Shown here: positions 4,415 through 53,400 of the stretch, one piece after another
Numbering within the stretch: the first letter of the stretch is position 1
Layout: every line of letters starts with the position of its first letter
Origin: a bacterium
GTDB taxonomy: Bacteria > UBA8248
Length of the DNA: 64,000 bases
NCBI GenBank assembly: GCA_965204535.1
Contig: CBDBEV010000001.1
Span: 288,001 to 352,000 of the forward strand
Direction of reading: 5' to 3'
Made by a program: the position numbers and the translations under genes
Notes under the pieces: model-generated
Databases searched by the model: none
Told to the model about the DNA's origin: nothing
The model's input: the letters and a program-made list of their open reading frames with translations, nothing else

Positions 4415-4606
4415 TCAGTAGCTCGTGTCCCGTCCCCTCTCCCAAAACGGCCTGCGCTTGAGGCGCTCTCGCAAGCGGTCGTCCGGTTCAGCGGGCGCAT
4501 CGAGGGCTGCGAGAAACATTTCGTAGGCCTCATCATCAAGCTCTATGACGGAGCGCTCGTCGGGCGACAAGCGTTCGTCTTTCACCCGCATATTCATTCG
4601 GCTCAT
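4415..4606 (-). pseudogene. DUF1778/TacA-like antitoxin, internally shortened
   Basis: RMNMRV start and C-terminal IELDDEAYEMFLAALDAPAEP..L..L.RRPFWE, but only 63 aa; no GNAT toxin next to it. Confidence 0.6.
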
Positions 4607-4735
4607 TTACAATCTCTCCAGTTTCGGCGGCATGGGTCCATTCCGACGCAGATGTATGGCGTTTGCATATACGCCTGTCAAGGACACCTTACCTCCTATC
4701 TCTTCCAAAATCCCGTTTCTTCTCGACAACGCCCT

Positions 4736-4762
4736 CTATAAGATATATATTATAGATATATA
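4736..4762 (+). promoter_or_regulatory. AT-rich palindromic operator/promoter of mazEF
   Basis: CTATAA-GATATATA-TTATAG inverted repeat ~25 nt upstream of the mazE start. Confidence 0.45.
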
Positions 4763-4784
4763 AATCCGAGAGGAGGATATTCAC

Positions 4785-5024
4785 ATGGGCGCGAAATCAC
4801 ATATCGCCAAATGGGGGGACAGCCTGGCCGTCCGCATCCCCAAGCCCATCGCCGAGCAATGGGGCGTGCGCGAGGGTTCGGCCATCGAGATGAACGCGCG
4901 CGGCGACCGGGTGGTGATGAGAAAGAGAGGCTACCGGTTGGCCGACATGCTCGCCGAAATAAACGCGGACAACCTGCACGCCGAACAAGACGCCGGTCCG
5001 GCGCAGGGCGCAGAGGCGTGGTAG
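4785..5024 (+). CDS. mazE: MazE/AbrB-family antitoxin
   Basis: KWGDSLAVRIPK motif; ends G.EAW overlapping the toxin start. Confidence 0.92.
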   Translation: MGAKSHIAKWGDSLAVRIPKPIAEQWGVREGSAIEMNARGDRVVMRKRGYRLADMLAEINADNLHAEQDAGPAQGAEAW

Positions 5025-33920: not shown

Positions 33921-34931
33921 TTGCATTCCCGGCGGCCAGGCGTTTCTTCGCTCGCTATGGTGGCGGCGCTTGCGTTGGCGCTCTCCGGATGCGGCGGTGG
34001 CGGCACGGTCTCCATGGGCGGCCCCAACGGCGATGACAGCAAGATGTCGCTATCGGGCAAGTGGAAACGCTTCGCAGACGGCAACCCGACGCTTCGCATG
34101 ACAAGCGCACAAGTGTCCACGGCCTGGAGGGCGGCCGCGTGGAAGTCTACCCACAGAGTGATCCTGGGGCCTGTCAGTGTCGGCGCAAACCCCGCATCGG
34201 CCGTCCAGATAGAGACTGACCCATGCTCGCCCGGCGAGTGCGACCTGGAGCCGCCTCCGGACAACACTCGGCAATTCGCTCCAGTGCTGGGCCACAACGA
34301 TGTTCCTGTCGCTGAATACAAGGCCCGCACTACCCGAACCCTGCCGGTGCTCGAAGCCGGGGAGACAGCCCGGACAACCCTCTTGGATTTTCTAACCTAC
34401 GGCGGTTGGCTCGATCACACGGAATTCCGCGTTTCCGTCTCCCGCTGGTGTTCGGTCGGCGCGGCAGGGTGTTCGGGAACGGATCCGGACTACGAAAACG
34501 GAATTGCCTTCGGCTTCATGGCGGGCAGTTACTCCGGAACGACGCCCGCGGGCGTGGGGTCGGCCACATGGACGGGCGTCATGGTCGGGATGGAATCCCC
34601 GGAAGCCGGCTCCGACAGGGCCCTGGCTTTGTTACGGAACGGGCCGGATGTGTTTCTCGGCGACGCGCGGATCACGATAGACGATCTCGCGGCTCCCGAT
34701 GTCGATGTTTCATTCACCAATATCCATAACGTCACCGAGGGAGTCCCTCATGATGACATGAGTTGGGAGAACCTTCGCATACAGGACGACGGCTTGTTCG
34801 GCGGACTTGCTGGAGAGAGAGACGGGAACGAGTACATCGCCGGGATGTTCACCGGCCCCAGGCATCAGGAAGTGGGTGGCGAATTCCGGAGGAACGGTAT
34901 CGTGGGGGCCTTCGGCGCGAAACGCCAGTAG
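33921..34931 (+). CDS. Lipoprotein with TbpB-like C-terminal beta-barrel
   Basis: Lipobox LSGC + GGGG; GSATWTG.M.G; GMFTGP.HQEVGG.F...GAFGAKRQ. Confidence 0.75.
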   Translation: MHSRRPGVSSLAMVAALALALSGCGGGGTVSMGGPNGDDSKMSLSGKWKRFADGNPTLRMTSAQVSTAWRAAAWKSTHRVILGPVSVGANPASAVQIETDPCSPGECDLEPPPDNTRQFAPVLGHNDVPVAEYKARTTRTLPVLEAGETARTTLLDFLTYGGWLDHTEFRVSVSRWCSVGAAGCSGTDPDYENGIAFGFMAGSYSGTTPAGVGSATWTGVMVGMESPEAGSDRALALLRNGPDVFLGDARITIDDLAAPDVDVSFTNIHNVTEGVPHDDMSWENLRIQDDGLFGGLAGERDGNEYIAGMFTGPRHQEVGGEFRRNGIVGAFGAKRQ

Positions 34932-36235: not shown

Positions 36236-38695
36236 TTAGGGGTTTTCGGGTGCGGCCATGCGGTAGCCGACCCCGCGCTCGGTCAGGATCCAGGTGGGCC
36301 GGGCCGCGTCATCGCCGAGCTTCCGGCGGAGCTGCTTCACGAATGTGCGCACCAGCTTTGGGTCGTCCGGGTCGTGTATGCCCCATATCTGGCGCAGCAA
36401 CGAATCGTAGGTCAACACCCGCCCCGCGCGGAGTGAGAGCAGGCGCAACAGTTCGTATTCGGTCGCCGTCAGTTCCAACCGGCGCCCAGCCATGGTCACC
36501 CGGCGCAGATCGTAGTGGATGGCCAGCTCCCCCATGAGGAAGGGTTCGGGCTCGACCCTGTGGCGCAGGGCTGCCCCGACCCTCGCCGTCAGCTCGGTCC
36601 CCGAGAAGGGCTTGACGATATAGTCGGCGGCTCCGCTCTTCAGGGCCTTGGCGATGGTCTCGTCCCGTCCGTAGCCCGAGATGAAGATCACCGGCAGGTC
36701 GGCGAGTTCCGGGACGCTTTCCATCAGTTCGATCCCGTCGACCCCTGGCAGCACCAGGTCCAGCAGTACCAGTTGGGGATTCTCGGCCCGGATGAGCCGG
36801 GAGAGCTCCCCCGCCTCGCCCGTGACGAGCGGGGCGTAACCCGCCTCCGTAAGCGTGTTGCGAACGAAACGCAGCGTCTGCGGGTCGTCGTCCACCACGA
36901 GAATGCGCGTCGGCTCACGCGCTTCCTGGGGCGGCCGCTCGTCAGCGCCCTCGCCCGCCTCCCCTGCCGTCGCGATGGTGAAGGTGAAGCAGGTTCCCTG
37001 GCCCGGACCGCCGCTCTCCGCCCGGATGCGGCCCCCGTGGGCCTCGACCAGACCCTTGCAGATGGCAAGGCCCAAGCCGCTCCGGCCAAACCCGCCTGCC
37101 TCGTCTGCGTTGGCGATGCCGGTGTGCTTCTCGAACAGGCGGGGCAGCAGTTCGGGCGCCACGCCCCGGCCTTCGTCGGAGACCGAGACCGCGACGTACT
37201 CTTCCTTGTGTTCCGCGGCGATCCGAATCGGGGAGGATTCCGTAGAATGCCTCGCCGCGTTGGACAAGAGGTTGTTCAGAACCTGGACTATGCGCTGGCG
37301 GTCCGCCATCACCCGGGGCAAATCCGGCGGAAGGTCGATGAGGAGGGGGTGCCGGCCGCCGCTGCTCAGGAACGTGTTTCTTGCCTGGTCCACCAGCGCC
37401 GCCACCTCCGAGGACTCGGGCGCGACCGACAACGTGCCCGCGTCGATGCGCCCCGCGTCCAGCAGGTTGCTGATCAGGTCCCGCATGTGGTCGGCCTGCT
37501 CGTTGATGATGCGGAAGAACTGGAGCATTTCTGCCGAATTCGGGAGCGGCGACGCATCCAGCACCGTAGTGGCGGAGCCCTTGATGGAAGTCAGCGGCGC
37601 GCGGAGCTCGTGGCTCACCATGCCCAGGAACTCCGCCCGCAGCCGCTCCAGTTCCTCGATCGGCGTCAGGTCCTGCATGGTTACCACAACCGAGTCGACC
37701 TCGCCGTCGACTGAGCGGATCGGCGTCGCGTTGATCAGCGTCCTCACCCTGCGCCCGTCGGGGACCGAGAGCACGATCTCCTCGGCGCGCACCCTCTCAG
37801 CCTTGCCGAGATGCTCGGCCAGAGGGAACTCGCTCAGCGAAATCTCGTGCCCGTCGGCGCGTCGGCAGGTTATCACCTTGCTCAGCTGCTCCAACGGGTG
37901 GCCCGGAATCCGCAGGTTATCGATCAGGGCTGTCGCCTCGTGGTTGAGCGACCGCGGATTGCCGCTCTTCGCATCGAAGACCACAACGCCCACGGGCGAG
38001 GTCTCGACCAGCGCCTCGAGGTCGGCATGCGCGCGCTGCTCATCGCGGTGCGCACGCGCGTTGACGAGCACGCTCGCCGCCTGCGCCGCGAACAGCAACA
38101 GGACCTCCTCGTCTTCGCCCGTGAACCCGCCCTCCCCCTCCTTGTCACCGAGGAAGAAGTTGCCGACGTTGACGCTCCCGTGGCGGACCGACACGGCCTG
38201 GAACGTATTCGAGGGTATCGGTTCCGCGGAGAATCCCAGCGAGCGGACGTAGGCCGGAAGGTCGTCCAGCCGGATCGCCCCCTTGAGGTTGTGCAAGTGC
38301 TCGAAGAACCTGAAACGATCCGGCCACTCCAGCATCCGGAGTTCCTCTTCCGGCGTGAAGCCGGAGGTGACGAAGTCCTCGGGGCTCCCCGCCTCATCGA
38401 CGACCGTGATCACCCCGTTGCGCGCGCCGGTGAGCGCGCGGGCGTTTTCCAGCACCTCGCGCAGGACGGTGTCCATATCGAGGCTCGCGCTGATGCGCAG
38501 GATCGCCGCGATCAGCCGCGAGGTGCGTTCGCGCAGCACCTCGATCTCCTCCCTCAGCCGTTCGGTTTCTTGCAACCCCTCATCCTCCCCGGAGAGCGGC
38601 GGCGAAATCCGGCTCGATCCCACCTGTCGATGGTCACACCCGGACTGGACCGGGCGGAGCGGGTCTCTGGACTGGGAAAACGCATCCAGCCGCAT
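36236..38695 (-). CDS. Soluble hybrid sensor-regulator: GAF-PAS-HisKA-HATPase-REC-winged helix
   Basis: SHELRAPL H-box, NLLSNAARH, GLGLAIC, ILVVDDD..LLDL..P..DG..DYIVKPF, OmpR-type LTATEYELL..TERGVGY; no TM segment. Confidence 0.9.
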   Translation of the reverse strand: MRLDAFSQSRDPLRPVQSGCDHRQVGSSRISPPLSGEDEGLQETERLREEIEVLRERTSRLIAAILRISASLDMDTVLREVLENARALTGARNGVITVVDEAGSPEDFVTSGFTPEEELRMLEWPDRFRFFEHLHNLKGAIRLDDLPAYVRSLGFSAEPIPSNTFQAVSVRHGSVNVGNFFLGDKEGEGGFTGEDEEVLLLFAAQAASVLVNARAHRDEQRAHADLEALVETSPVGVVVFDAKSGNPRSLNHEATALIDNLRIPGHPLEQLSKVITCRRADGHEISLSEFPLAEHLGKAERVRAEEIVLSVPDGRRVRTLINATPIRSVDGEVDSVVVTMQDLTPIEELERLRAEFLGMVSHELRAPLTSIKGSATTVLDASPLPNSAEMLQFFRIINEQADHMRDLISNLLDAGRIDAGTLSVAPESSEVAALVDQARNTFLSSGGRHPLLIDLPPDLPRVMADRQRIVQVLNNLLSNAARHSTESSPIRIAAEHKEEYVAVSVSDEGRGVAPELLPRLFEKHTGIANADEAGGFGRSGLGLAICKGLVEAHGGRIRAESGGPGQGTCFTFTIATAGEAGEGADERPPQEAREPTRILVVDDDPQTLRFVRNTLTEAGYAPLVTGEAGELSRLIRAENPQLVLLDLVLPGVDGIELMESVPELADLPVIFISGYGRDETIAKALKSGAADYIVKPFSGTELTARVGAALRHRVEPEPFLMGELAIHYDLRRVTMAGRRLELTATEYELLRLLSLRAGRVLTYDSLLRQIWGIHDPDDPKLVRTFVKQLRRKLGDDAARPTWILTERGVGYRMAAPENP

Positions 38696-38899: not shown

Positions 38900-39229
38900 A
38901 TGAAAAGTCTAATCATGACAGTGGTTCTGGCAACGGCGCTGGCAGGGTCTTTTGCCGTGGCGAATGCCGGGGGAGACAAACCGCCGGAGTCTAACAGATG
39001 TGAGTTCTACTTTAATGAGAACATTCCGCCCGCCCCCGCCCGGAAGAGTTGCCACGGTCTCATTTTCACCGAGCCTGGAAACAACCAGTATCGTGTGAGC
39101 GGTAACTGTAATCTTGATGCAGGTCCCGGGTCCAAGCTCACGACCATCACGGTCACTGACGCGCGCAACTGCGCCGTCCTGGCGAACTGCAATGGGGAGT
39201 TGGTCGTGGGGAGATGCGGCAATCAATGA
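38900..39229 (+). CDS. Small secreted Cys-rich protein, paralog 1
   Basis: Signal peptide ending AVANA-GGDKP; 6 Cys; LANCNGELVVGRC. Confidence 0.85.
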   Translation: MKSLIMTVVLATALAGSFAVANAGGDKPPESNRCEFYFNENIPPAPARKSCHGLIFTEPGNNQYRVSGNCNLDAGPGSKLTTITVTDARNCAVLANCNGELVVGRCGNQ

Positions 39230-39326
39230 CCGTGAACCCCGAGAATCGCTCCGACAACGGCGATTCAACTTGCTCGGTAGTCGCTCAAGTCCGACAGGCT
39301 ACCAACCTAAAAGAAGGAGATGTCAC

Positions 39327-39692
39327 ATGAAAAGTCTAATCATGATAGCGGTTTTGGTAATGACGATTGCAGGGTCTTTTGCCGTGGCGAATGCCGGGTC
39401 AGAAAAACCGGTTGATACCGACCCTACGTTCTTTTGTAGGAACACCTTTCAGAACAGCTCCGCAGCGAGACATACCTGCAAAAGCGTCTCAATCACCAAG
39501 ATCGGAGCCGACTCGTATAGGGTGAGCGGTCGATGTGAAATGGCGCATCGGCCAAACGAGTACAGGGATACGACCATCAATGTTGTTGACTCCCGCCGTT
39601 GCGGCGACCTGACGAACTGCGACGGGACGTTGGTCGTGGGTGCTTGCCTGGACTGTGTCGATAAAAGAACCATGCGAAAGATAGCGTGCTAG
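39327..39692 (+). CDS. Small secreted Cys-rich protein, paralog 2
   Basis: AAGGAG RBS; signal ending AVANA-GSEKP; 8 Cys; LTNCDGTLVVGAC. Confidence 0.87.
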   Translation: MKSLIMIAVLVMTIAGSFAVANAGSEKPVDTDPTFFCRNTFQNSSAARHTCKSVSITKIGADSYRVSGRCEMAHRPNEYRDTTINVVDSRRCGDLTNCDGTLVVGACLDCVDKRTMRKIAC

Positions 39693-39918
39693 ATAAATTG
39701 AGCCGCTCCATGCGAGGTGGGTCCACCATCAACGTCAAGGTCAAGCGTTCAGTTCTTGCCGGATTCGCCGGCGCACCGCGCTCATCCTGCCCGTGAGCGC
39801 GGATGACTTTGAGTAAGCCGAAGGATGCCTCGAGGCTGAAAAACTGCGGCGGCGACCTTGGACTCGGTGCTTGCCGATGGCAAGGCTTCCGCACGCCCCA
39901 GACGAAAGGAGACCAGCA

Positions 39919-40233
39919 ATGTTCTTGACCCTTGCCACGATGGGACTCGCCGTCGCCCTCGTATCGCTCCCCGGTGCAGCGTACGCCCTGGAGGAGAAAC
40001 CCGTCGACGCCCCCCCGCCCGTGGCCGAGAATTGCCGCAACCACTGGGAGAAGAGTTCCGCAAGCCAGACCTGCTCCAACGAGAAAATCGTGAAAGTGAT
40101 GAATTACAGATGCCGCATCACGGCGACGTGCCGGGTGGGCGGCGGTACGAAACGCTCCTGGAAAGTGATGGACCCGGAGGATGCCGCGCGGCTGCTCAAC
40201 TGCAGCGGCTGGCTGAAGGTCGGTAGTTGCTGA
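39919..40233 (+). CDS. Small secreted Cys-rich protein, paralog 3
   Basis: AAGGAG RBS; signal ending AAYA-LEEKP; 6 Cys; LLNCSGWLKVGSC. Confidence 0.85.
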   Translation: MFLTLATMGLAVALVSLPGAAYALEEKPVDAPPPVAENCRNHWEKSSASQTCSNEKIVKVMNYRCRITATCRVGGGTKRSWKVMDPEDAARLLNCSGWLKVGSC

Positions 40234-40413
40234 ACCGCGGGCCGGCGATCATATGGGCGGGGATGGCGGGCCGGGCGCGAAATCCCTGCGGGGCCGGGCA
40301 ACGAACCATGAGAGCCGTCCGGTGCAGGAAGGCGTTAGTTGGGGGTCCGCGAATCCTGCGTACAACTCCTGCGCATCCCGGCGAGTTGCTGTCGAATCCG
40401 GAGAAACACGGTC

Positions 40414-41913
40414 GTGACGACTTTCTCGGCAAAGGCGGCTTCCTGCATCGCCGCGGCCAGCCTGTTCTGCTGTGCGGCCCCGGGGTTCGGAAAAGAGCCC
40501 GAAGGCGATATGACGGAGCATCTCCACCTTTCCCTCGGGGAGGCCGTTTCCCTGGCCATGCGCAACAACCGCGAACTGATCAACGCGCGGCTCGATCGCG
40601 TCGCGGAACGCTTCTCTCTCCGGGTGGCGGAGAACAAGTTCCGTCCGCACGTGACCATCGGCCCCTATATCGAAAAAAGCCGCACCGCGCCGTCCACGGA
40701 CACCGGCGCGGCGGGCGTGTCGTCGAGGGCCACGGTGCGCCTGCCCGCCGGCGGGACATTCAGGGTCACCTGGAGCGGCGGCCGCAGGAGCGGAGGCGCT
40801 TCATCGCAGCCGCGGTATTCGAGCGCGCTGGAGTTCACGTTCACGCAGCCCCTGCTGCGCGGAGCGGGCGCCGGGGTCAACACGGCCTCGGTCAAAACCG
40901 CCCGGCTTGCGGAGGAGATCAATATTCTGGCCCTCAGGCAGACGATCATCGAAGTCGTTTCCTCGGTCGTCGAGAGCTATCGCGATTACATGCAGGCCGA
41001 GCGACGCGTGGAAATCCGGGCCAAGTCCCTCGAGCGCGCCCGTGATCTCCTGAGGGTGAACGAGCTGCTCGTGCAGACCGGCCGGATGGCCGAGCGCGAC
41101 ATCGTGGAGACGCAAGCCGATATCGCCAGCCGCGAGTTGCGTCTGCTCTCGGCGCGGAACAGCCTCGACGCCGCCCGCCTGGCGCTGGCGGACATCCTCG
41201 ACATCGACAGCCGGACCCGGCTCCGGCTTACGGACGCCCTCGCCGGCGCCCTTGAGGAGGAGCCGCCGCGAACCGACGCGGCGGACGGCATCGAGACGGC
41301 CCGTCTGCATCGCCCGGATTACCTGCGGGCGCTTGTGCTCGTCAGGATCGCCGAAATCCGGGCGAAGGTGGCCGCCAACGAACGCCTGTGGGATCTCTCG
41401 GTGGAGTTGTCGACGAAATTCTCCGGTACGGGCAGGACCCCGGGCGCCGCCGCGGGCCGTCTCGACGACACCGACTACGGCGCCCGGCTGTATCTCGGCG
41501 TCCCGATAGGCCGGGCGGCGACGGATCCCGGGAAATACGAACACGTGAAGGCGGCCGTCGCACTCGAGAAGTCCCGCAACGTCCTTGCGAACCTGCGCCA
41601 GCGAATCGACATCGAGGTGAGCAACGCCATCCGGGAAGTGGAACTGTCGGGCCGGCAGGTGGAACTGGCGCGCTCCGCCCGCGAACTCGTGGAGCAGAAG
41701 ACGGAGATCGAAAAGGAAAAGCTGCGCCTGGGGTTGTCGTCGAACTTCCGCCTGGTCGCCTTCGAGGACGATCTGGTGTCGGCCCAGAACAGCGAGCTGG
41801 ACTCGATCATAGCCCATCGGGCCGCCCTGACGGCGCTGGACCGCACCCTGGGCACCACGCTCAAGCGCTGGAACATCGAGGTCGGCGAGGTGGACCGGGA
41901 GGGCGCCCGGTGA
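40414..41913 (+). CDS. TolC-family outer membrane factor
   Basis: LSLGEAVSLAMRNNREL, FTQPLLRG, two coiled-coil repeats, EKEKLRLGLSSNF; start uncertain (GTG 40414 with GGAG). Confidence 0.9.
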   Translation: MTTFSAKAASCIAAASLFCCAAPGFGKEPEGDMTEHLHLSLGEAVSLAMRNNRELINARLDRVAERFSLRVAENKFRPHVTIGPYIEKSRTAPSTDTGAAGVSSRATVRLPAGGTFRVTWSGGRRSGGASSQPRYSSALEFTFTQPLLRGAGAGVNTASVKTARLAEEINILALRQTIIEVVSSVVESYRDYMQAERRVEIRAKSLERARDLLRVNELLVQTGRMAERDIVETQADIASRELRLLSARNSLDAARLALADILDIDSRTRLRLTDALAGALEEEPPRTDAADGIETARLHRPDYLRALVLVRIAEIRAKVAANERLWDLSVELSTKFSGTGRTPGAAAGRLDDTDYGARLYLGVPIGRAATDPGKYEHVKAAVALEKSRNVLANLRQRIDIEVSNAIREVELSGRQVELARSARELVEQKTEIEKEKLRLGLSSNFRLVAFEDDLVSAQNSELDSIIAHRAALTALDRTLGTTLKRWNIEVGEVDREGAR

Positions 41914-43754
41914 GCGGCGAGGAGGACAGGAGGCGAGCGCCCGGGAGCGGCGACCGGTCGTCGTCCGCCGGTCTCATCTACAAGAATGTCCTGGACAACG
42001 TGGCGAGCGGGGTCATATCGCTCGGCGCCGACGGAGTCATCACGAGTTTCAACGCGGCGGCCGCTGAGATCTGCAACATGACGGGCGAGGCGGTGATCGG
42101 CCGCAAGTTCTTCGAGGTCTTCTCCCAGGAAGAAGGCCTGGACGAATTCACCGACGTGATCTTCGACGCCGTCTACGACTCGTCCATGGTCCATCAGCGC
42201 CTGGTGGAGGCGACCCTCGGCGGCAGGACACGCTCCCTGTCCATGGCGACGACGTATCTGAAGCAGGAGCGCGACGGCGAGACCGCCAGGATTGGCGTGG
42301 TCGTGTTGTTCAGCGACATCACCGAGATCAGGGAGTTGCGGGAAACCGAACTTCGTCTGGCCAGGGAGATGGAGGCGAAGCACGCCGAACTCCGGGAAGC
42401 ATATCTGAAACTGGAGGAAACGAGCCGGAAACTGGGCGCGGCCTCGAAGAATATCCGTGTCGTCAGGGCGGGCGCGGTGCTGGCGTTGGTGATGCTGTTC
42501 GCCGCGGTCGGCCTGTACTTCTGGGACGCCGGCATGGACGCCGGCCCGCCGGCCGGAAGCGGAGCCGCCGTCCCGGCTCCGCCCGCCCCGGAAGATCTCC
42601 GGCTTCTGGTGGTCGAGCCGCGGCGCATTTCCTCGACCGTCACCATTCTCGGGCGGCTCGCGCCGAGACGGGAGGTCGAGGTCGTCAGCCCGATGCAGGG
42701 CAAGGTGGGTGCGGTGCACGTCCGGCCGGGCCAACGAGTGGCCAAGGGCCAGCGACTGCTGGACATGGACGTTGCCGAGGTTCGGATCAGCCATCGCGAG
42801 GCGCAGGTCGCCCATATCAAGGCGCGCGACCGGGTCGAGGAGCTGAAGGACTGGTCCAATCACGCCGAAGTATCACGCGCCCGGAGGGCCGTGAGCAAGA
42901 GGAGGATCGCGCTGGAGTCTCTGAAGAGCCGGCTCTCGGAAACCGCCTTCCTGCTGAAGCGGGGCATCATCCCGGCGTCGGAGCACGAGGCGGCCGAGCG
43001 GGAGCACCGCAACCAGTTGCTGGACCTCCAGGCGGCGGAGATGGACCTCGAGGCGGTCCTGGCAAGGGGCGCCGCCGAACTCGACGTGGCGCGGCTGGAA
43101 CTGGACAACGCGCGCGCCCGGCTGAAGCGCCTGGAGGAAATCCTGGGCAAGGCGAGGGTGACCGCACCGGCGACCGGGGTAATCCTGCATTCGAAGGGAG
43201 GAAAAGCCGGGGATGGGGGCGAGGAGAACGACAAGCTGGCGAGAGGCGCGTTCGTCGAGCGGGGAGACCTGGTGCTGACGATCGGCGACCTCGAGGGCCT
43301 GACGGTCATCGGCCATGTGGACGAGGTGGACGTAACGCGCATCCGCCCGGGCCAACCGGCCAGGGTCGTGGGCGACGCCTTTCCCGGCGTCGTGCTGCGC
43401 GGCGAGGTCAACCGCGTTTCTTCGCAAGCCATCCTCCCCGCCGCCGGCCGCAGGGGACTGCCGACTTTCGAGGTCGCCGCCGTCGTGGAGTCCCTGACGG
43501 AGGAGGTGCGCCGGCTGCTGCGCCTGGGCATGTCCGCCAGGGCCGAGGTGGTCGTCTACGAAAAGGAGAACGCATTGCTGATTCCCGTCGGGGCGGTGGA
43601 GTTGCAGGACGGCCGGCCCTGGCTGTGGGTCAGGGACCGCGGCTCCGGCGAGGCCAGGGCGGTCGAGGTGGTCACCGGCATGACCACCGTGGACTCGGTC
43701 GAGATCATCGACGGGATATCTCCCGGCGATGAAATCCTGATCGGAGGTCGATAA
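41910..43754 (+). CDS. MacA-like periplasmic adaptor with N-terminal PAS domain
   Basis: GTGA overlap with tolC stop; PAS (VLDNVASGVI..DGVITSFN.AA..I); coiled coil; TM; SPMQGKV..V.PGQRV.KG, APATGVI, VDEVDV.RI.PGQ, LRLGMSA. Confidence 0.88.
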   Translation: MSGEEDRRRAPGSGDRSSSAGLIYKNVLDNVASGVISLGADGVITSFNAAAAEICNMTGEAVIGRKFFEVFSQEEGLDEFTDVIFDAVYDSSMVHQRLVEATLGGRTRSLSMATTYLKQERDGETARIGVVVLFSDITEIRELRETELRLAREMEAKHAELREAYLKLEETSRKLGAASKNIRVVRAGAVLALVMLFAAVGLYFWDAGMDAGPPAGSGAAVPAPPAPEDLRLLVVEPRRISSTVTILGRLAPRREVEVVSPMQGKVGAVHVRPGQRVAKGQRLLDMDVAEVRISHREAQVAHIKARDRVEELKDWSNHAEVSRARRAVSKRRIALESLKSRLSETAFLLKRGIIPASEHEAAEREHRNQLLDLQAAEMDLEAVLARGAAELDVARLELDNARARLKRLEEILGKARVTAPATGVILHSKGGKAGDGGEENDKLARGAFVERGDLVLTIGDLEGLTVIGHVDEVDVTRIRPGQPARVVGDAFPGVVLRGEVNRVSSQAILPAAGRRGLPTFEVAAVVESLTEEVRRLLRLGMSARAEVVVYEKENALLIPVGAVELQDGRPWLWVRDRGSGEARAVEVVTGMTTVDSVEIIDGISPGDEILIGGR

Positions 43755-43757
43755 GCG

Positions 43758-44501
43758 ATGAACGAAGGAAACGGCGAAGCGCACCCGGAGATCATGCTGA
43801 GCCTGGTCGATATCCGCAAGAGCTATGCCACGGGGCCAATCGAGACGGAGATACTCCGGGAAATCAGGCTTGACGTGTACAAGGGCGATCTTTTGTCGAT
43901 CATGGGGCCGTCGGGCTGCGGCAAATCAACGCTGATGAACATCATCGGCCTTCTCGACCGGCCGACCTCCGGCTCCTACTTCCTCAAGGGGCGCGAGATC
44001 GGCGCGATGAGCGACGCCGAACTGTCCGCCCTGCGCAACGCCAGCATCGGCTTCGTTTTCCAGTCGTTCCATCTGCTTCCGCGCCTGACGGCCTGGGAGA
44101 ACGTCGCCGTTCCGCTGGTGTATCGGGGCGCAGGCGCGGCAATCATGCGGCGCCGGGCCCGCGAAATGCTCGAGAAGGTGGGCATGGGGGACCGCGCAGG
44201 CCATCGGCCCGCCGAGCTTTCCGGAGGCCAGCGGCAGCGCGTCGCCATCGCGCGGGCGCTGGTGGGCGAACCGGATATCCTGTTGGCCGACGAACCCACC
44301 GGCGCCCTGGACGCGGATACAGGCGGCGAGATCATGGGGCTGTTCGCCGGATTGAACGCCGATGAGGGGCTCACCGCCATTATCATCACCCATGACCGGG
44401 ATGTTGCCCGCCGGTGCGCGAGGCGCACCCGGATTCTCGACGGCGTACTGAGCGAAGCGGCGCTTCCGGCGGAGCGGGCCTCCGCCCCCGGCGCGCCGTG
44501 A
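43758..44501 (+). CDS. ABC ATPase (MacB/LolD type)
   Basis: GPSGCGKST, LSGGQRQRVAIARAL, LADEPTGALD, ITHD. Confidence 0.96.
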   Translation: MNEGNGEAHPEIMLSLVDIRKSYATGPIETEILREIRLDVYKGDLLSIMGPSGCGKSTLMNIIGLLDRPTSGSYFLKGREIGAMSDAELSALRNASIGFVFQSFHLLPRLTAWENVAVPLVYRGAGAAIMRRRAREMLEKVGMGDRAGHRPAELSGGQRQRVAIARALVGEPDILLADEPTGALDADTGGEIMGLFAGLNADEGLTAIIITHDRDVARRCARRTRILDGVLSEAALPAERASAPGAP

Positions 44502-44504
44502 TCG

Positions 44505-45701
44505 GTGAGCTGGATGATTGTTCTCCTCAAGGCCAATCTGAAAGAAGCGGCGAGCAGCCTGGCCACCGCCCGCCAGCGCAGCCTGCTCGCACTGCTCGGC
44601 ATCGTGATCGGCGTCGGTTCGGTGATCGCGATGGTTTCGGTGGGGGTAATCGTCAGGGGCGAGGCTCTCAAGCAGTTCCAGGAACTGGGCACGGACATTC
44701 TGACCATCCGCCTCCGGCGCGGGAGCCCCGGGACAGGCCCTCTCCGCCTTGCCCCGCGCGACGCCCTCGGGGTTGCGGCGCTTCCCGCCATCGCAGCGGC
44801 GGCGCCCTACGCGCTCTCGTACGGACAGGCCTCCCTCGCCGGCAAGTCGGTGAAGGATGTAATGCTCATCGGCGCCACCGCCGCCCTCGCCGACCTCAAC
44901 AAGCTTCGGGTCGAGGCGGGCAGGTACATTTCCGATCTCGACCACCACCGGTATTTCTGCGTGGTCGGGGCGCAGGTCGCCTCGGACATGCGCGAAGCCG
45001 GCTTCAAACGCATCGTCGGCGAGACCATCAAGGTGGACGGCGCCGTTTATACCGTCGTGGGCATGCTGCGGCGAGCCTCGCGGGGTATGCGTCGCTTCGA
45101 TGCGAACCGCTCGATCATCATCCCCGTCTCGACGGCGCAGCGGGTGTTTCGCCAGCCCGAAATCAGCAACGTCACGGCGCGCATGAGTCCCGGAGCGCAC
45201 CATGTGGCGGCGACGAGGGAGGTCGAAGGATATTTCCGGCGCAAAGCGCCCGGTTTCGAGGTCCACGTGCGAAGCGCCGAGCAATTGATCGAGCAGATGC
45301 ACAAGCAGATGCGGCTGTTCGCGCTGCTGCTGGGATCTGTGGGGGGCATCTCGCTTCTCACCGGCGGGATAGGGGTCATGAACGTCATGCTCGTGTCGGT
45401 GAGCGAGCGGCGTCTGGAGATCGGCATCCGGCGCGCTCTCGGTGCGCGCCGCACGGACATCCAGAGCCAGTTCCTGATCGAATCGCTCATGCTGTCACTG
45501 GCCGGCGGCATGGTCGGTACCGCCGCGGGGATCGGGGCGACCTGGGCGATCTGCCAGTTCACGGGCTGGACGTTCCTGATCTCGGCGGCGGCCATGGGCC
45601 TCGGGGTGGGCGTGGCCGGCGCCGCCGGCGTGTTCTTCGGGTTCTATCCCGCATTGCAGGCGGCCAGGCTCGATCCTGTAGCGGCGTTGCGCGGGACATA
45701 G
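44505..45701 (+). CDS. MacB/FtsX-family ABC permease
   Basis: RSLL.LLGIVIGVGSVIAM, GGIGVMNVMLVSV.ER..EIGIR.ALGA, PA..AARLDPV.ALR. Confidence 0.95.
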   Translation: MSWMIVLLKANLKEAASSLATARQRSLLALLGIVIGVGSVIAMVSVGVIVRGEALKQFQELGTDILTIRLRRGSPGTGPLRLAPRDALGVAALPAIAAAAPYALSYGQASLAGKSVKDVMLIGATAALADLNKLRVEAGRYISDLDHHRYFCVVGAQVASDMREAGFKRIVGETIKVDGAVYTVVGMLRRASRGMRRFDANRSIIIPVSTAQRVFRQPEISNVTARMSPGAHHVAATREVEGYFRRKAPGFEVHVRSAEQLIEQMHKQMRLFALLLGSVGGISLLTGGIGVMNVMLVSVSERRLEIGIRRALGARRTDIQSQFLIESLMLSLAGGMVGTAAGIGATWAICQFTGWTFLISAAAMGLGVGVAGAAGVFFGFYPALQAARLDPVAALRGT

Positions 45702-45915
45702 CCGGACGGGACACCGGGCGACGGGCTTCGCCCTATCCGGCGGACGCGGTTGGCCACGTTCCGGGAAACTTCCCCGAGTGGCGCTTTGCGTTACGGCGGT
45801 GTTGCCGTCGCATAAATTTGTTGACCACCCAGGACCTGACGCCTGGTTTTTATAGCCGAAGGCCCATACTGCTCACGTACATTCAGTACAAGTCCCATGG
45901 AGAAGGGGAAATCAC

Positions 45916-46251
45916 ATGTCTTTTACCAACCCTGGCGTAAAAACCTTTTTGCTTTGCATTTGCGTTGTATCGTTCATCGTCGTTGCCTATGCGGTTCCCG
46001 TCTCTGCCGGGAGCGAAAAGCCCAAACCTTCCGTAGTCGACAGATGCCGCGAAAACTATTCCAAAAGTCCGGCATCGAAGGTTTGCGTCAGAGAAAAATT
46101 CGAGAAGGTGAACGAACGGTGTCGGGTGACTGCCCATTGTCCGACTCGCCTGGGCGATTGGTGGCCGTTCAATACGCGGATAGTGGTAGTTCCGGAAGAT
46201 GCTTCCAACCTGCGCAATTGCAACACCAAGCTCAAGGCGACGGCTTGCTGA
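45916..46251 (+). CDS. Small secreted Cys-rich protein, paralog 4
   Basis: Signal ending VSA-GSEKP; 6 Cys in the mature part; LRNCNTKLKATAC; AAGGGG..TCACATG start context shared with paralog 1. Confidence 0.85.
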   Translation: MSFTNPGVKTFLLCICVVSFIVVAYAVPVSAGSEKPKPSVVDRCRENYSKSPASKVCVREKFEKVNERCRVTAHCPTRLGDWWPFNTRIVVVPEDASNLRNCNTKLKATAC

Positions 46252-46320
46252 TGCCAGGTTATGGTGAAAGCAAAATGCTCCAGATGAAACTGCACCCTAT
46301 CGTAACGCGCGGAACGGGGG

Positions 46321-47925
46321 TTGGGGAGCGGCGCGGCCGGGGCCCTCACTCTTGTCCATCTCGCCGACAGGGTGGCAGGGGCGGACGTGCCGATTCGCTT
46401 TGACGAGCCGGCGCGTGGTTCACGTGCGCTCGCCGCCGCCCTCGGCGCCCTGGCTGCGGCGGCGTTGCCGCCGGTCCATGCCGTGCCGTTGCTGCTTGTC
46501 TCCTTCACCGGCCTCGTCCGGCTGATCCACACGAGCCCCTCGCCGTGGCGCGCCGCAGCCGTGGCCTGGTGGTTCGGCCTCGCCCATTTCATCGCGGGCC
46601 TCTACTGGATCGGCCCGGCCCTGCTCACCGGCCCCGCGCGCTTCGGCTGGCTGTCCGCACCCGCGGCGATCGGCCTCGCGGTGGTCCTCGCCGTATATCC
46701 GGCGCTCGCCGCTTTCACGGCGCGGTTGCTTCCGCTGGCCATCGCCGGCCGCGTGCTCGCTTTCGCCATCGCCTGGACGGCTGCGGAGTGGCTGCGCGGC
46801 AACGTCCTGACGGGCTTCCCGATGAACCTCATGGGCACGGTCTGGGCGCCCTCGATCGCCATGCTCCAGTTCACCGCGCTTGCCGGGGCCTATGGCTTGG
46901 GGTTCGTGACCGTTCTCGCCGCAGCCGCCCCCGCGGCGCTGTCCCTCCCTCCCCGGAGCGGACGTTCCTGGGCGCTGCCTGCGGCGGCGTTCGGACTGCT
47001 GGCTGCGGTCTGGGCGGGCGGAGAGCTCCGCCTCGCGCTCGCCCCCGATTCGCCGCCCACCGGCACAAGCCTGCGCCTCGTATCGGTCAATATCGATCAG
47101 AGGATCAAATGGCGGGACGACATGCGCATGGCGGCGCTGACGCGCTACGTCGAACTCTCGCGCCGGCCGGGGTTCGAGGCAACCGACCTGGTGATCTGGC
47201 CGGAGACGACGGTGACCTTCTACCTGGCCGAGCGAGCGCCGCTTCGCGCCCGCCTCTCCCGTGCCGCACCGCCGGGCGGCCACCTCGTGACCGGGTCGCT
47301 GCGGCGCATCCGCTCAAAGGAGCTCCCTACCGTCTTCTGGAACAGCCTCCACGCACTGACGCCTGCGGGCGACATCGCTGCGACGTATGACAAGCACCAT
47401 CTGGTGCCTTTCGCGGAGTACAACCCGCTGAGCGCGATCCTCCCCCTGCCAATCCTCGTCGGCGGGGCGAACGACTACTCCGCCGGGCCGGGGCCGCGCA
47501 CCCTGCGCCTGCCCGGCCTGCCGCCCTTCAGCCCGCTGATCTGCTACGAGGCGATCTTCCCCGGCGCGGCGGTGGCCGCCGGTGGGCCGGCGCAGGAGCG
47601 GCCGAGATGGCTGCTCAACATCACCAACGATGCCTGGTTCAGGCGCACGTCCGGGATCTGGCAGCACTTCGAGGCGGTCCGCCTGCGGGCGGTCGAGGAG
47701 GGCTTGCCGATGGTGCGTGTGGCGAACGCCGGCATCTCCGCCGTCGTCGACGCCTACGGCCGCGTGAGGGGCCGGCTCGGGCCGGACGAGGCCGGCGTGT
47801 TCGACTCCCCCTTGCCGCCGGCGCTCGCAGCGCCGCCGCCGCAGGCCAGGCTCGGCGGCTGGTCTCTCGTAATCCTTCTGCTTCTCGCCACGGCGGCCCT
47901 GCCCGCGCTCGGCCCGCAGCGATGA
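46321..47925 (+). CDS. lnt: Apolipoprotein N-acyltransferase (Lnt family)
   Basis: Multiple TMs, EWLRG...GFPM, triad WPE / YDKHHLVPF.EY / ICYE, NITNDAWF; start uncertain. Confidence 0.92.
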   Translation: MGSGAAGALTLVHLADRVAGADVPIRFDEPARGSRALAAALGALAAAALPPVHAVPLLLVSFTGLVRLIHTSPSPWRAAAVAWWFGLAHFIAGLYWIGPALLTGPARFGWLSAPAAIGLAVVLAVYPALAAFTARLLPLAIAGRVLAFAIAWTAAEWLRGNVLTGFPMNLMGTVWAPSIAMLQFTALAGAYGLGFVTVLAAAAPAALSLPPRSGRSWALPAAAFGLLAAVWAGGELRLALAPDSPPTGTSLRLVSVNIDQRIKWRDDMRMAALTRYVELSRRPGFEATDLVIWPETTVTFYLAERAPLRARLSRAAPPGGHLVTGSLRRIRSKELPTVFWNSLHALTPAGDIAATYDKHHLVPFAEYNPLSAILPLPILVGGANDYSAGPGPRTLRLPGLPPFSPLICYEAIFPGAAVAAGGPAQERPRWLLNITNDAWFRRTSGIWQHFEAVRLRAVEEGLPMVRVANAGISAVVDAYGRVRGRLGPDEAGVFDSPLPPALAAPPPQARLGGWSLVILLLLATAALPALGPQR

Positions 47926-48395: not shown

Positions 48396-49220
48396 TTGAG
48401 AAGAAATGACACGGCGAAGAAATTTTCGCCAATCCTGTGCCTGATCTTCTTGTTCGCCTGGTTTATTTGCGCCGAAACCGGAGAAGGAAGCGATTGGGAT
48501 ATCCGCATCGGTCTGGGCGCAATATACGATGCGAAGTATGAAGGTTCCGATGAGATGAAAGCGCGGGCTCTTCCCCTGATAGATGTTACCTGGAAAGACC
48601 TGGTTTTTCTCAACTCGCGCGAGGGTTTGGGCGTGCGCGTTTTCGACGACCACAACCTCACGGTCAGCGTCGGGGTGGGGTATGTGTTCGGCAGGGATGA
48701 ATCGGACAGCAACGACCTGAGAGGCATGGGTGATATCGATGACGCCGCTGCCGCCAACCTCAAAATAAAATATGTCATCGGACCGGTTGCGCCCTACATC
48801 GGCGCTTCCAGACATTTGGGAGATGTCGACGGGACTTTGGTGGAGGCAGGCGTCGGGGGCATCGTGCCGCTGGCTCTGATAACCGGAGGGATGGATTCGC
48901 CGGGCATGGGTGCCGGCGGGCTGAAAGGACCGGCGCTGCAACTCGGCGTATCCGCAACCTGGGCGGACGGCGACTATATGGAAGGCTACTTTGGCGTGAA
49001 TCCGGTTCAGTCTTCGCGTTCGGGTTATGCCCGATATCACCCCGAGTCCGGATTCAAATCGGTGGACTTCAGGTTCGGCGTCATCTATCTGTTTGCGGAA
49101 AACTGGGCGGTGAACGCCCGGGGCGGGTACTCACGATTGCTCGGCGATGCCGCCGACAGTCCAATCGTCAAAGACGATGACCGGTTTTCCGGCGGTTTGT
49201 TTCTGTCTTACCGTTTCTGA
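48396..49220 (+). CDS. MipA/OmpV-family outer membrane protein
   Basis: YEGSD....P, LRGMGDID, WAD.DYM..YFGV...QS..SG..Y, RL.GDAADSPIV, terminal YRF. Confidence 0.92.
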   Translation: MRRNDTAKKFSPILCLIFLFAWFICAETGEGSDWDIRIGLGAIYDAKYEGSDEMKARALPLIDVTWKDLVFLNSREGLGVRVFDDHNLTVSVGVGYVFGRDESDSNDLRGMGDIDDAAAANLKIKYVIGPVAPYIGASRHLGDVDGTLVEAGVGGIVPLALITGGMDSPGMGAGGLKGPALQLGVSATWADGDYMEGYFGVNPVQSSRSGYARYHPESGFKSVDFRFGVIYLFAENWAVNARGGYSRLLGDAADSPIVKDDDRFSGGLFLSYRF

Positions 49221-50457: not shown

Positions 50458-53400
50458 ATGAGACATCGCTCGAGAGAAGACCGACGGGGCTTGCAGGCGG
50501 AGGCGGCTGCGGTCCGTCATCCGTCATCCGAAGAAGAGGGCGGCATGAGCGCCGGACGGCTGTCCGGGCGCCGCAAGCCGGCTTCCCGGACCCCGGCGGA
50601 GCCCGTCCCGGGTTTATCGGGGGGCTCCCTCCCGCCTGAGCCGGCCGCCGCCCCCCGCGGGCGCGCACGCAAGCTCCTCTCCCCTTCATCCGGACTGACC
50701 GGCGGCCACGGCGCCGCTCCGGCAGGCTCGCGCCGGGCCGCGTCCGCGTGGCGCCGCCTCGCGCTGCTGCCCGTCCTCGCGCTGGTGCTCGGCGCGCTGT
50801 GCCTGCTCGACGCCGCCCCGGTCGGGGCCACTCATGAGACCGCACCTACCGGCGTCTCCGTGTCAGCATCGCAGTCGGGACAGTTGGCGGTCACCTGGAC
50901 CAAGCCCGCCAGCACCCTCGGCTCAAGGGTACGATGGCGTGTGAAGTCCCCGCAAGGCAGCTGGCAAGGAGGCGGTGAGGGCGAAAGAGTATTCAATCAA
51001 AGCTGCGCCGCTACTACATGCTCATTCACGATAACGGGCTTGACCAACGGGACCACATATGAGGTCCAGGTAGGTATAAGGAATTTTCACGATCATTGGT
51101 CCGCCAGCGCGGACGGCACCCCCCAGGGCGCCGCGCTGTCCACCAACGCGAACCTGAGCGGTCTGACGGCGAAGAGCGCGGCGAGCGCGACGGGCACGTT
51201 CTCGGCGCTCGCGTTGACCCCGGCGACCTTCTCGGCGGCGACGACCGCCTACACCGCCTCGGTGGCGAACGGCGTCACGCACGTGAAGCTGACGCCGACG
51301 AAGGCGCACACCGGCGCCTCGATCAAGGTCGGCAAGGGGACGAGCCTCTCGGCGGTGACCAGCGGCTCGGAGAGTTCGGCCATCGCGCTCTCGGTGGGTT
51401 CGAACGCCATCAAGGTCGAGGTCACGGCCCAGGACGGCACGACGAAGCGGACCTACACCGTCACCGTGACGCGGGCGGCCGCCACCCTGTCCACCAACGC
51501 GAACCTGAGCGGTCTGACGGCGGCGGGCGCGACGAGCGCGACGGGCGCGTACTCTTCGCTTTCGCTGACGCCTGCGTTCTCGGCGACCCGGACCTCGGCC
51601 ACCTACGAGGTCTCGGTGCCCGTCAACATCACGCATGTGAAGCTGACGCCGACGAAGGCGCACACCGGCGCTTCCATCAAGGTCGGCAAGTTTGCCACGG
51701 TCCTGAGCCCGGTGAACAGCGGCTCGGAGAGTTCGGCCATCGCGCTCTCGGCGGGCTCGACCCTGCTCGTGGTCGAGGTGACGGCCCAGGACGGCACGAC
51801 GAAGAAGACCTACAACCTCACCATGCGGTGGGACGCCTCGACCCCATCCCCCCTCTGGTCGGCGACGCTGACGGCGAAGGCCACAACCGGCACTGGCAGA
51901 GGGTGCGACAACTCGGTAACGGGCAGCAAGTGCAGTTCGACCTCGGTGCTGACGGACGACGACTTCACGCACGCAAGCCACACCTACGAGATTTCAGCAG
52001 TGGAGGGCGTCGATGGCGGCGACCGCCTGACGGTCGAATTCAACCGCGATGCGACCGTCACGCTGGACGGCTACAAGCTGTGCGTCGGCGCGACGGCGTT
52101 GGCGTTCTCATCCGCCACTCATACCGCGGGCAATCGTTTCGCCGCGTGGACCCCCTCTCCGGCCCTGCCGATTCGCACCGGCGACACGGTCTCGCTGAGC
52201 ATCGTGCCCTCCGGCTCGTCCTGCCCGACCGCGGCCCCGACCGCCCGGACGCCGACCGCGGCCGGCCCGAGCGCGGGCCTGGCGCTGTCGGTGGCGCCGG
52301 GCGACGGGTCGCTGGCGCTGACGTGGAACAAGCCGTGGGGGCCGAACTATATCTATGAGGTGCAGTGGAAGGCGTCCTCGGCGCCGGACGCGGACGCGAG
52401 CACGCCGGGCGACCCGTCGACCGGCTGGGTGGCGCCCGGGCGCGCGCGGATTGTCAATGGCGTGCCCCAGACCCGCTACACCTCCCGCACGGAGTACACG
52501 ATTCGGGGGCTGGCCAACGGCACGGCCTACGACGTGCGGGTGCGCCCGTACGCCTATCCCGGTGAGGCCGAATGGCCCTGGTCCGCCGGCACGGGCACGC
52601 CGGCGGCGCCGGCCCCGCCCGCGTCGCTGACGCTGAGCGTGGACGCCGAGGCCATCGAGCACGAAGGCTCGGTGACGGTGACGGCGCGGCTGGACGCGCC
52701 GGCGATGAAGGCGATGGAGGTGTGGTTCGACACCGCGGGCGACGGCGGCGCGGCGCGCTGGGGCCCGGACTGCGCCTGGGAGCACGGCGCGAGCGACATG
52801 TTTGCCGCCGGCCAGCGGGAGGCGACGGTGAAGCTGTGCGCGACCGCGGCGGGCGCGGGGCGGACGATGACGGTCACGGCGGGGACCCACGATCCGGCGC
52901 TGACGGCGGCGGCCGTCAGGGTGCGGGTGCAGGGGCCGAACCCGCCGACGGCGCTGTCGGTGCACGCGGACCCGCAGGCCGTGGCGGCGGGCGGCACGGT
53001 GACGGTGACCGTGCGCCTCGACCGGCCGAGCGCGCCGGGCATGACGGTGCACCTCCACCTTAATGGCGTCGGGGCGGCGTCGTGGGGCGCGTGCGGCGGG
53101 ACCGCCGCCGCCCGGACCCTGCCCTCGCCCCTCTCCGGGTACCGGAGGGTGGAGATACCGCCCGGCGGGCGGGAGGCGGCGGCGGAGCTGTGCGTACTGT
53201 GGGAGGCCGGGCCGCGCCTGGAGCTCGGCGCGTATTCCTACGCGCCGCGGCTGGACGCGCCGGACCTGGCGCTGCCGGGGCCGGGGGGCCTGGGCCTGCG
53301 CGCGCTGACGGTGACCTCGCCGGACCCGTCGCAGCGGGTGGCGCAGGGCGAGGTGGCGCTTGAGGCGCAGAGCAGCAGCTACGAGGTGCGGGTGCCGCTC

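What the first reader, a model, noticed from the sequence alone, without database searches (positions are those of the whole stretch)
38900..47925. Candidate Aat-like secretion and N-acylation system for a family of small Cys-rich proteins
Seen: one co-directional locus encodes three small secreted paralogs, TolC, an adaptor, an ABC ATPase, a MacB permease, a fourth paralog and an Lnt-family acyltransferase with an intact E-K-C triad. The small proteins have AxA-type SPI signals and no lipobox Cys at the cleavage site. Their predicted mature N-termini are GGDKP, GSEKP, LEEKP and GSEKP (3 of 4 start with Gly; all have x-x-[DE]-K-P). Established: the enterobacterial Aat system (AatPABC plus the Lnt homolog AatD) acylates the N-terminal Gly exposed by SPI on CexE/dispersin and exports it from the periplasm, and MacAB-TolC can export disulfide-bonded peptides. 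Inference: this locus is an analogous Sec, Gly-acylation, MacAB-TolC pathway for a different substrate family. Caveat: this Lnt looks fairly canonical and could simply serve ordinary lipoproteins.
Basis: partly seen in the sequence, partly recalled or inferred. Interest (0 to 1): 0.9.

Follow-up and report, generated by a model that had tools for sequence, protein, structure and literature searches.

The report
Exporter of half-size cyanovirin-like proteins
A bacterium found in sponge metagenomes carries two copies of a gene cluster for small cysteine-rich proteins predicted to fold like one half of the sugar-binding protein cyanovirin, a pump that likely exports them, and an extra, likely borrowed lipid-attaching enzyme that may anchor some of them to the cell surface.

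Summary
All nine genes are real and in the order stated. (1) The small proteins are a large unannotated family (654 clusters). Their 70-residue, six-cysteine domain is predicted to fold as a single cyanovirin-N repeat (best four structural matches all CVN/CVNH, Z 6.1-6.6; no Pfam hit). (2) The adaptor carries an N-terminal PAS domain. (3) The genome holds a second copy of the locus, 13 matches to the family in all, and a separate housekeeping lnt. The domain sits beside this exporter in 7 of 23 other exporter loci; other loci carry unrelated small signal-peptide proteins, so two-step export is likely. The Aat analogy holds only in part. Gly at +1 is not invariant (6 of 11 here, 22 of 132 family-wide), and six genomes with the exporter have only one lnt. 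Yet this Lnt belongs to a fast-evolving subclade, nested among Rhodospirillales Lnts, that travels with the exporter (10 of 18 versus 1 of 102), and Gly is enriched in the linked cargo clade (8 of 12 versus 12 of 82). Verdict: a MacB-TolC-type secretion system for likely lectins, with an optional and possibly convergent AatD-like acylase (about 40%).

The parts
38900..39229 (+). S1: 109-aa secreted protein, single cyanovirin-like repeat (divergent member), predicted +1 Gly
39327..39692 (+). S2: 121-aa paralog with an extra two-Cys tail, predicted +1 Gly; 89% identical copy in the second locus
39919..40233 (+). S3: 104-aa paralog, predicted +1 Leu; mature domain modelled at pLDDT 96.9, matches CVN/CVNH
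40339..41913 (+). TolC-family outer-membrane factor (true start may lie a little downstream)
41910..43754 (+). Periplasmic adaptor with N-terminal PAS domain (24-141), linker, one membrane segment (184-202) and MacA-like core
43758..44501 (+). Stand-alone ABC ATPase, LolD/MacB-type
44505..45701 (+). MacB-type permease (MacB_PCD + FtsX), not fused to the ATPase
45916..46251 (+). S4: 111-aa paralog, predicted +1 Gly
46321..47925 (+). Extra Lnt-family N-acyltransferase, Rhodospirillales-type, exporter-linked subclade; catalytic E295/K358/C408 and E366 intact; likely start GTG 46387
36236..38695 (-). Divergent hybrid sensor kinase/response regulator (GAF-PAS-HisKA-HATPase-REC-DNA-binding); a truncated relative lies divergent from a cargo gene in the second locus; possible regulator, untested

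Best explanation
The locus encodes four small signal-peptide proteins predicted to fold as single cyanovirin-like repeats, a TolC/PAS-adaptor/ABC/MacB-type pump that likely exports them from the periplasm, and an extra Lnt that may lipidate some of them. Steps: (1) Sec export and signal peptidase I cleavage (inferred from signals, about 0.9). (2) Disulfide folding in the periplasm into a closed one-repeat CVN-like domain with an added N-terminal helix (predicted, about 0.8). (3) Export across the outer membrane by the MacB-type pump, as for STII and CexE (inferred from recurrent gene linkage, about 0.8); the cytoplasmic PAS domain would tune the pump (speculative). (4) Binding of glycans of the host or of neighbouring cells by a diversified set of paralogs (inferred from fold, about 0.5). 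[quoted passage not shown]
For: Cargo-exporter linkage: both copies in this genome; 7 of 23 other adaptor loci carry the domain; 4 of 6 other genomes found by the domain have the pump beside it. Several loci without it carry other small signal-peptide proteins (six tandem paralogs in L022; L031/L033/L035; three in a Ralstonia locus). The domain also occurs in a long ORF with Calx-beta-like and autotransporter-like parts (L099, read by eye), which fits work outside the cell. Fold: model pLDDT 96.9; VIA top four all CVN/CVNH, Z 6.1-6.6, rmsd 1.9-3.0 A over 49-54 residues, next unrelated Z 4.0; Foldseek top five CVN/CVNH; Atlas first hit a CVNH cluster at 0.86; a Photorhabdus member is labelled 'CVNH domain protein' by its source. 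Lnt: only this genome of 51 in its phylum has three full lnt matches; subclade of 18 (support 0.98) nested among Rhodospirillales-type Lnts, branches 0.59 vs 0.32, 10 of 18 share a contig length with an adaptor hit vs 1 of 102 outside; dN/dS about 0.5; Gly at +1 in 8 of 12 vs 12 of 82 representatives.
Against: No experiment. 16 of 23 adaptor loci lack the domain (several are short contigs). Z under 8 can be a common arrangement, Foldseek E-values are 0.04-0.08 with TM 0.34-0.41, the PDB sequence profile gives cyanovirin only E 4.4, and none of 156 proteins scanned hit Pfam CVNH. Gly is not invariant: 5 of 11 paralogs here start L, A, M, T or S; both cargos at L024 start F. Six genomes with the pump (G013, G018, G020, G058, G466, G480) show one lnt only. 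At L024 the lnt follows eno and an ftsB-like gene, 5 kb from tolC, and could be that host's ordinary lnt. Contig-length matching is indirect (one of 11 flags is impossible; four are this genome or close kin), and the Gly enrichment is not independent of shared ancestry. All Lnt-flagged adaptors fall in one clade of 38, so co-inheritance as a block is not excluded.
Confidence: 0.55

Rival explanations
1. Same secretion system, but the Lnt is an ordinary Cys-lipoprotein N-acyltransferase that was moved with the island and serves lipoproteins, such as the Cys-Gly-Gly-Gly surface lipoproteins nearby; the small proteins are released unmodified.
For: Passes the Lnt equivalog cut-off; 48-56% identical to named alphaproteobacterial Lnts and nested in their tree; pump and cargo occur without it in six genomes; Gly not invariant; a CGG lipoprotein lies within 5 kb of both loci here and between lnt and tolC in L024.
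Against: The host already has a housekeeping lnt, as do 50 of 51 genomes of the phylum; two diverged copies (74%) are kept, each flanked by cargo genes; the subclade has long branches and changed motifs; about 25 such lipoproteins are spread over the genome with no lnt beside the others.
Confidence: 0.4
2. One reading: an Aat-like pathway in which Gly-acylation by this Lnt is the entry ticket to the pump.
For: Same five-part anatomy as AatPABCD, with split ATPase and permease; 3 of 4 window cargos and 6 of 11 in the genome start with Gly; Gly enriched in the linked clade.
Against: In Aat the Gly is invariant, and G20E abolishes acylation and secretion (PMC7943197); here near-identical pumps are flanked by Leu-, Ala-, Met-, Thr-, Ser- and Phe-starting cargos, and related pumps occur without an extra lnt.
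Confidence: 0.12
3. The small proteins are not lectins: the CVN-like fold is reused as an enzyme inhibitor, antimicrobial or immunity-type protein, and the paralog array reflects an arms race.
For: Very fast divergence (22-48% among paralogs), N-terminal helix and disulfide pattern absent from CVN, no Pfam CVNH hit, single repeat.
Against: The residues kept across 116 domains are those matching CVN's S-Q-T-C segment and an N-x-[ND]-G-x-L hairpin; tandem forms of 2-6 repeats suit multivalent binding.
Confidence: 0.3
4. The pump exports a small molecule or relieves envelope stress, and the small genes gather beside it for another reason.
For: MacB pumps have many small-molecule cargos (PMC8277102, passages); 16 of 23 loci lack the domain; L021, L028-L030 and L038-L040 showed no obvious small secreted neighbour.
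Against: Recurrent flanking by several unrelated families of small signal-peptide proteins, in changed order and orientation.
Confidence: 0.12

Closest known systems
Aat/Cex lipoprotein secretion system (AatPABCD with CexE/dispersin; PMC7943197 parts 1 and 3 and first part of the discussion read; PMC13622617 passages)
   Same: Sec/SPI cargo of about 10 kDa without lipobox; TolC, adaptor, split ATPase and MacB/LolC-like permease; an Lnt-family enzyme with the E-K-C triad and fourth Glu.
   Different: Cargo unrelated by the searches run and disulfide-rich; Gly not invariant; the enzyme is a recent offshoot of alphaproteobacterial Lnt, whereas AatD shares about 10% identity with Lnt (PMC8689077, passage); enzyme absent from many related systems; adaptor carries PAS; many cargo paralogs per locus.
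MacAB-TolC export of heat-stable enterotoxin II (PMC8277102, passages)
   Same: Two-step route for a Sec-exported, disulfide-bonded polypeptide taken from the periplasm.
   Different: ATPase and permease are separate genes; dedicated TolC; PAS-fused adaptor; cargo genes encoded in the locus.
Cyanovirin-N / CVNH lectins (PDB 1n02, 5c8o, 2l2f, 2jzj, microvirin 2yhh)
   Same: Three-stranded sheet, short helix and beta-hairpin in the same order; model residues 12-71 overlay 49-54 residues at 1.9-3.0 A.
   Different: One repeat instead of two intertwined ones; extra N-terminal helix and six Cys; not detected by Pfam PF08881; sugar binding untested.
Housekeeping apolipoprotein N-acyltransferase Lnt (TIGR00546)
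   Same: Full-length, above cut-off, catalytic residues intact.
   Different: Extra copies beside an exporter; GFPW motif reads GFPM/GFPI/GYPI (shared with its parent clade), PFGE reads PFAE in the window copy; long branches.

Membership tests
Aat/Cex lipoprotein secretion system | Cargo with Sec/SPI signal and no lipobox | tested here: met
   (by eye and own heuristic; no SignalP)
Aat/Cex lipoprotein secretion system | Invariant Gly at +1 of the cargo | tested here: not met
   6 of 11 in this genome; 22 of 132 with a called signal among 150 examined; Phe at L024
Aat/Cex lipoprotein secretion system | TolC + adaptor + ATPase + MacB/LolC-like permease in one operon | tested here: met
Aat/Cex lipoprotein secretion system | Lnt-family enzyme with E-K-C triad and stabilising Glu | tested here: met
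   E295, K358, C408, E366 invariant; E. coli numbering from PMC7943197
Aat/Cex lipoprotein secretion system | Enzyme is an AatD ortholog, remote from Lnt | tested here: not met
   nested among alphaproteobacterial Lnts at 48-74% identity; no AatD sequence was placed in the tree
Aat/Cex lipoprotein secretion system | Acyltransferase accompanies every system | tested here: not met
   one lnt only in G013, G018, G020, G058, G466, G480
Aat/Cex lipoprotein secretion system | Cargo homologous to CexE/dispersin | tested here: inconclusive
   not listed in fold or sequence searches; CVN/CVNH lead instead
Aat/Cex lipoprotein secretion system | Acylation occurs and is needed for secretion | not testable with these tools
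   needs mass spectrometry and mutants
CVNH lectins | CVN fold | tested here: met
   predicted model; VIA Z 6.1-6.6 for four CVN/CVNH chains, next unrelated 4.0; Foldseek ranks 1-5
CVNH lectins | Pfam PF08881 match | tested here: not met
   0 of 14, 0 of 36 and 0 of 106 proteins
CVNH lectins | Two repeats in one chain forming domains A and B | tested here: not met
   one repeat in each window protein; two-domain layout of CV-N from PMC9725752 (passage); homodimer not modelled
CVNH lectins | Sugar-site residues conserved | tested here: inconclusive
   profile aligns S-A-x-x-[TS]-C with CVN S-Q-T-C; Asn 93%, Asn/Asp 77%, Gly 96% in the hairpin; mapping of that hairpin to CV-N N42/D44/G45 is recalled
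CVNH lectins | Binds high-mannose glycans | not testable with these tools
   needs a glycan array
MacAB-TolC-type tripartite ABC pumps | MacB periplasmic core + FtsX domain, MacA-like adaptor, TolC | tested here: met
MacAB-TolC-type tripartite ABC pumps | ATPase fused to permease as in E. coli MacB (orthologue level) | tested here: not met
   two genes, far below the MacB equivalog cut-off
Housekeeping Lnt | Sole, vertically inherited lnt of the host | tested here: not met
   a separate lnt at G000:C1:401927-403411, 32% identical, in a uvrC-lnt-prfB-lysS-lolC/E-like context read by eye

The most novel reading that the evidence does not exclude
A second, independent origin of AatD-like chemistry caught early: a housekeeping Rhodospirillales-type Lnt was captured by a PAS-controlled MacB-TolC secretion system and relaxed to acylate non-Cys amino ends (Gly by preference, perhaps also Ser, Leu, Phe), tethering a hypervariable array of single-repeat 'proto-cyanovirin' lectins to the surface of sponge symbionts for host-glycan recognition.
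Probability: 0.27. Interest if true: 0.87.

Novelty: new variant of a known kind. Interest (0 to 1): 0.7.

Why it matters
Glycine-acylated lipoproteins are described from the enterobacterial Aat/Cex system only (my searches returned those papers and reviews). An Lnt still 50-70% identical to housekeeping Lnts, with candidate substrates beside it, would show how Lnt switches from diacyl-Cys to free amino ends. Independently of acylation, the cargo is a family of 654 clusters with no Pfam model that looks like the one-repeat unit from which cyanovirin's two-repeat fold could be built, a source of small disulfide-stabilised binders and a candidate for symbiont-host glycan recognition. The pump looks like a general route for small folded periplasmic proteins, with a PAS-fused adaptor that I did not find described.

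Tried and rejected
Pfam and NCBIfam name none of the four small proteins; weak hits (DUF1505 in 3 proteins, SPARK in 1) were not pursued. The first fold search, with the signal peptide left on, gave only noise. PDB sequence searches: nothing for the full-length profile, cyanovirin at E 4.4 and a MAC/perforin chain at E 0.13 for the domain profile (the latter set aside as weak), nothing useful for a Photorhabdus member. The small-protein alignment was too divergent for a locus scan, so loci were found through the adaptor; only 23 of 64 parts of the metagenome collection were scanned. L041 and L058 were dropped from the locus count (PAS-only or weak matches); L042-L057 and L059-L095 were not examined. 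I found no held genome, other than this one, with the exporter-linked Lnt, so most of that linkage rests on contig lengths. No plasmid match to the Photorhabdus member; Azospirillum, Rahnella and Ralstonia loci have PAS-less adaptors and no hit to the domain. Assembly artefact rejected: the two copies differ (TolC 99.6%, permease 85%, Lnt 74%) and outside contigs support both arrangements. No RNA holder listed. Promoter and terminator scan near chance. No earlier scan notes matched.
Full report
Observation. All nine genes are present and co-directional: three small ORFs, tolC, adaptor, ATPase, permease, a fourth small ORF and lnt. Profile searches confirm the labels. The four small proteins are paralogs with hydrophobic signals ending A-x-A and no lipobox; cleavage sites were judged by eye and by my own heuristic. 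The Lnt keeps E295, K358, C408 and E366, the four positions named for Lnt and AatD in PMC7943197 (passages). Contigs of three studies, one labelled sponge metagenome, bridge macB-S4-lnt.

The genome. A second, inverted copy lies at C2:468-485 kb: tolC to macB 96.6% identical in DNA, an lnt 74% identical, and nine more matches to the small family, 13 in all. Eleven have a signal; predicted +1 residues are G, G, L, G in the window and G, A, G, M, T, G, S in the second locus, so Gly in 6 of 11. A third lnt, 32% identical, sits among uvrC-, prfB-, lysS- and lolC/E-like genes (read by eye). Of 51 genomes in the phylum, only this one has three full lnt matches; 48 have one, one has two fragments, one has none. 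The adaptor occurs in 4 of 51 and the small domain in 2 of 23 of the genus, so the locus is patchy and likely mobile.

The cargo. A profile of 22 mature domains finds 654 clusters at E up to 0.001, single or in tandems of up to six, with members in Photorhabdus. None of 156 proteins scanned hits Pfam CVNH. The mature S3 model (pLDDT 96.9) has a helix, a short helix, three strands, a helix and a hairpin. VIA-align ranks four CVN/CVNH chains first (Z 6.1-6.6, rmsd 1.9-3.0 A, 49-54 residues; next unrelated 4.0). Foldseek ranks five CVN/CVNH chains first but weakly (E 0.04-0.08). The Atlas gives a CVNH cluster at 0.86, a lead only. The full-chain ranges of the VIA matches suggest that one repeat closes on itself to mimic one domain of cyanovirin, whose domain A is built from both chain ends (PMC9725752, passage). 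The best-kept non-Cys positions are S, A and T/S before the second Cys, aligned to CVN's S-Q-T-C, and N-x-[ND]-G-x-L; that the latter matches CV-N's N42 hairpin is recalled. Lectin activity is inferred, about 0.5. Searches for such single-repeat proteins in print found nothing relevant in the listings.

Cargo and pump. Among 23 adaptor loci outside this genome (L019-L040 and L101), 7 carry the domain next to the pump, in varied order and orientation; 16 do not, several being short or near-duplicate contigs. Of 6 other genomes found by the domain, 4 have the pump beside it; in one other it lies in an autotransporter-like ORF. Loci without the domain often carry other small signal-peptide proteins: six tandem paralogs in L022, two small Cys-rich proteins in L031/L033/L035, three in a PAS-less Ralstonia locus. 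This fits a two-step exporter of folded periplasmic proteins, as described for STII and dispersin (PMC8277102, passages; only the first 300,000 characters are held).

The Lnt. Against an Aat-like rule: in Aat the Gly is invariant and needed (PMC7943197), but here Gly is called in 22 of 132 family members with a signal (150 examined); six genomes with the pump have one lnt only; just 1 of the 23 loci holds an lnt, and there it follows eno and an ftsB-like gene, 5 kb from tolC, with two Phe-starting cargos. For a dedicated role: among the 120 best homologues (of 5886), the window Lnt falls in a subclade of 18 (support 0.98) nested in a clade with members named Rhodospirillales, with longer branches (0.59 vs 0.32). 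Eleven of the 18 share an exact contig length with an adaptor hit or L024, one of them impossibly short, against 1 of 102 outside; three are contigs of 11, 14 and 118 kb. This is indirect, and four flags are this genome or close kin. dN/dS is about 0.5, against 0.29-0.38 for pump genes over the same pair. In a tree of 116 domains, the clade with seven cargos of this genome and those of L024 and L025 (support 0.84) has Gly at +1 in 8 of 12 representatives against 12 of 82 outside; kin share traits, so this is a hint. A rival substrate class exists: Cys-Gly-Gly lipoproteins lie near all three Lnt-bearing loci, but about 25 occur across this genome (28 pattern hits, a few spurious).

Mechanism and verdict. 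Most likely the small proteins go through Sec, fold with disulfides, and leave through the PAS-adaptor/MacB/TolC pump (about 0.8) to bind glycans (about 0.5); a co-opted Lnt may lipidate a subset for surface display (about 0.4). It works like Aat in anatomy but fails Aat membership on invariant Gly, AatD orthology and obligate presence of the acylase. It works like CVNH in predicted fold but fails the Pfam and two-repeat tests. I rate it a new variant of a known kind, interest 0.7. Supplements of the cited papers were not read; the Aat paper's homologue lists could bear on how far AatD-like systems were already traced.

Noticed in passing
L005:11392-11708 (G000:C2:471392-471708): A cargo paralog is frameshifted in a run of C just after its signal; run X1 agrees with the assembly, run X3 has another run length. 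Could be slipped-strand on/off variation.
   Followed up: partly
L006:3517-3972 and 4531-4914: A second family of two small Cys/Trp-rich secreted proteins (33% identical over 60 aa); one shares its first 16 residues almost exactly with S3's signal, suggesting signal-cassette shuffling. Atlas best score 0.78, unnamed.
   Followed up: partly
L005:17329-18100: Two cargo gene fragments and pieces duplicated from other paralogs just upstream of the second tolC: signs of recombination in the array.
   Followed up: partly
L022:13900-17747: Six tandem 160-aa secreted two-Cys paralogs of another family beside a rearranged copy of the same pump in G020.
   Followed up: no
L099:7633-10455: The cyanovirin-like domain inside a 941-codon frame with Calx-beta-like and autotransporter-like parts, after another Cys-rich domain also seen at the start of several family members.
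   Followed up: no
window 33921-34931: Lipoprotein with Cys-Gly4 start and a weak TbpB barrel match; about 25 similar lipoproteins are spread over the genome.
   Followed up: partly
window 48396-49220: MipA/OmpV-family outer-membrane protein right after lnt, same strand.
   Followed up: no
window 50458-56361: 1967-aa surface protein that looks by eye like repeated beta-sandwich, fibronectin-like and Calx-beta domains with an autotransporter-like end.
   Followed up: no
window 36236-38695: The last 441 residues of the hybrid kinase-regulator recur at 98% identity at two other places in the genome.
   Followed up: no
G013:C4:22406-26869 and 4118489-4122952: Identical cargo matches at both ends of the contig, probably terminal overlap of the assembly.
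   Followed up: no
P0008, P0381, P0452, P0453: Single-repeat members in several Photorhabdus species; their gene neighbourhood could not be read here.
   Followed up: no
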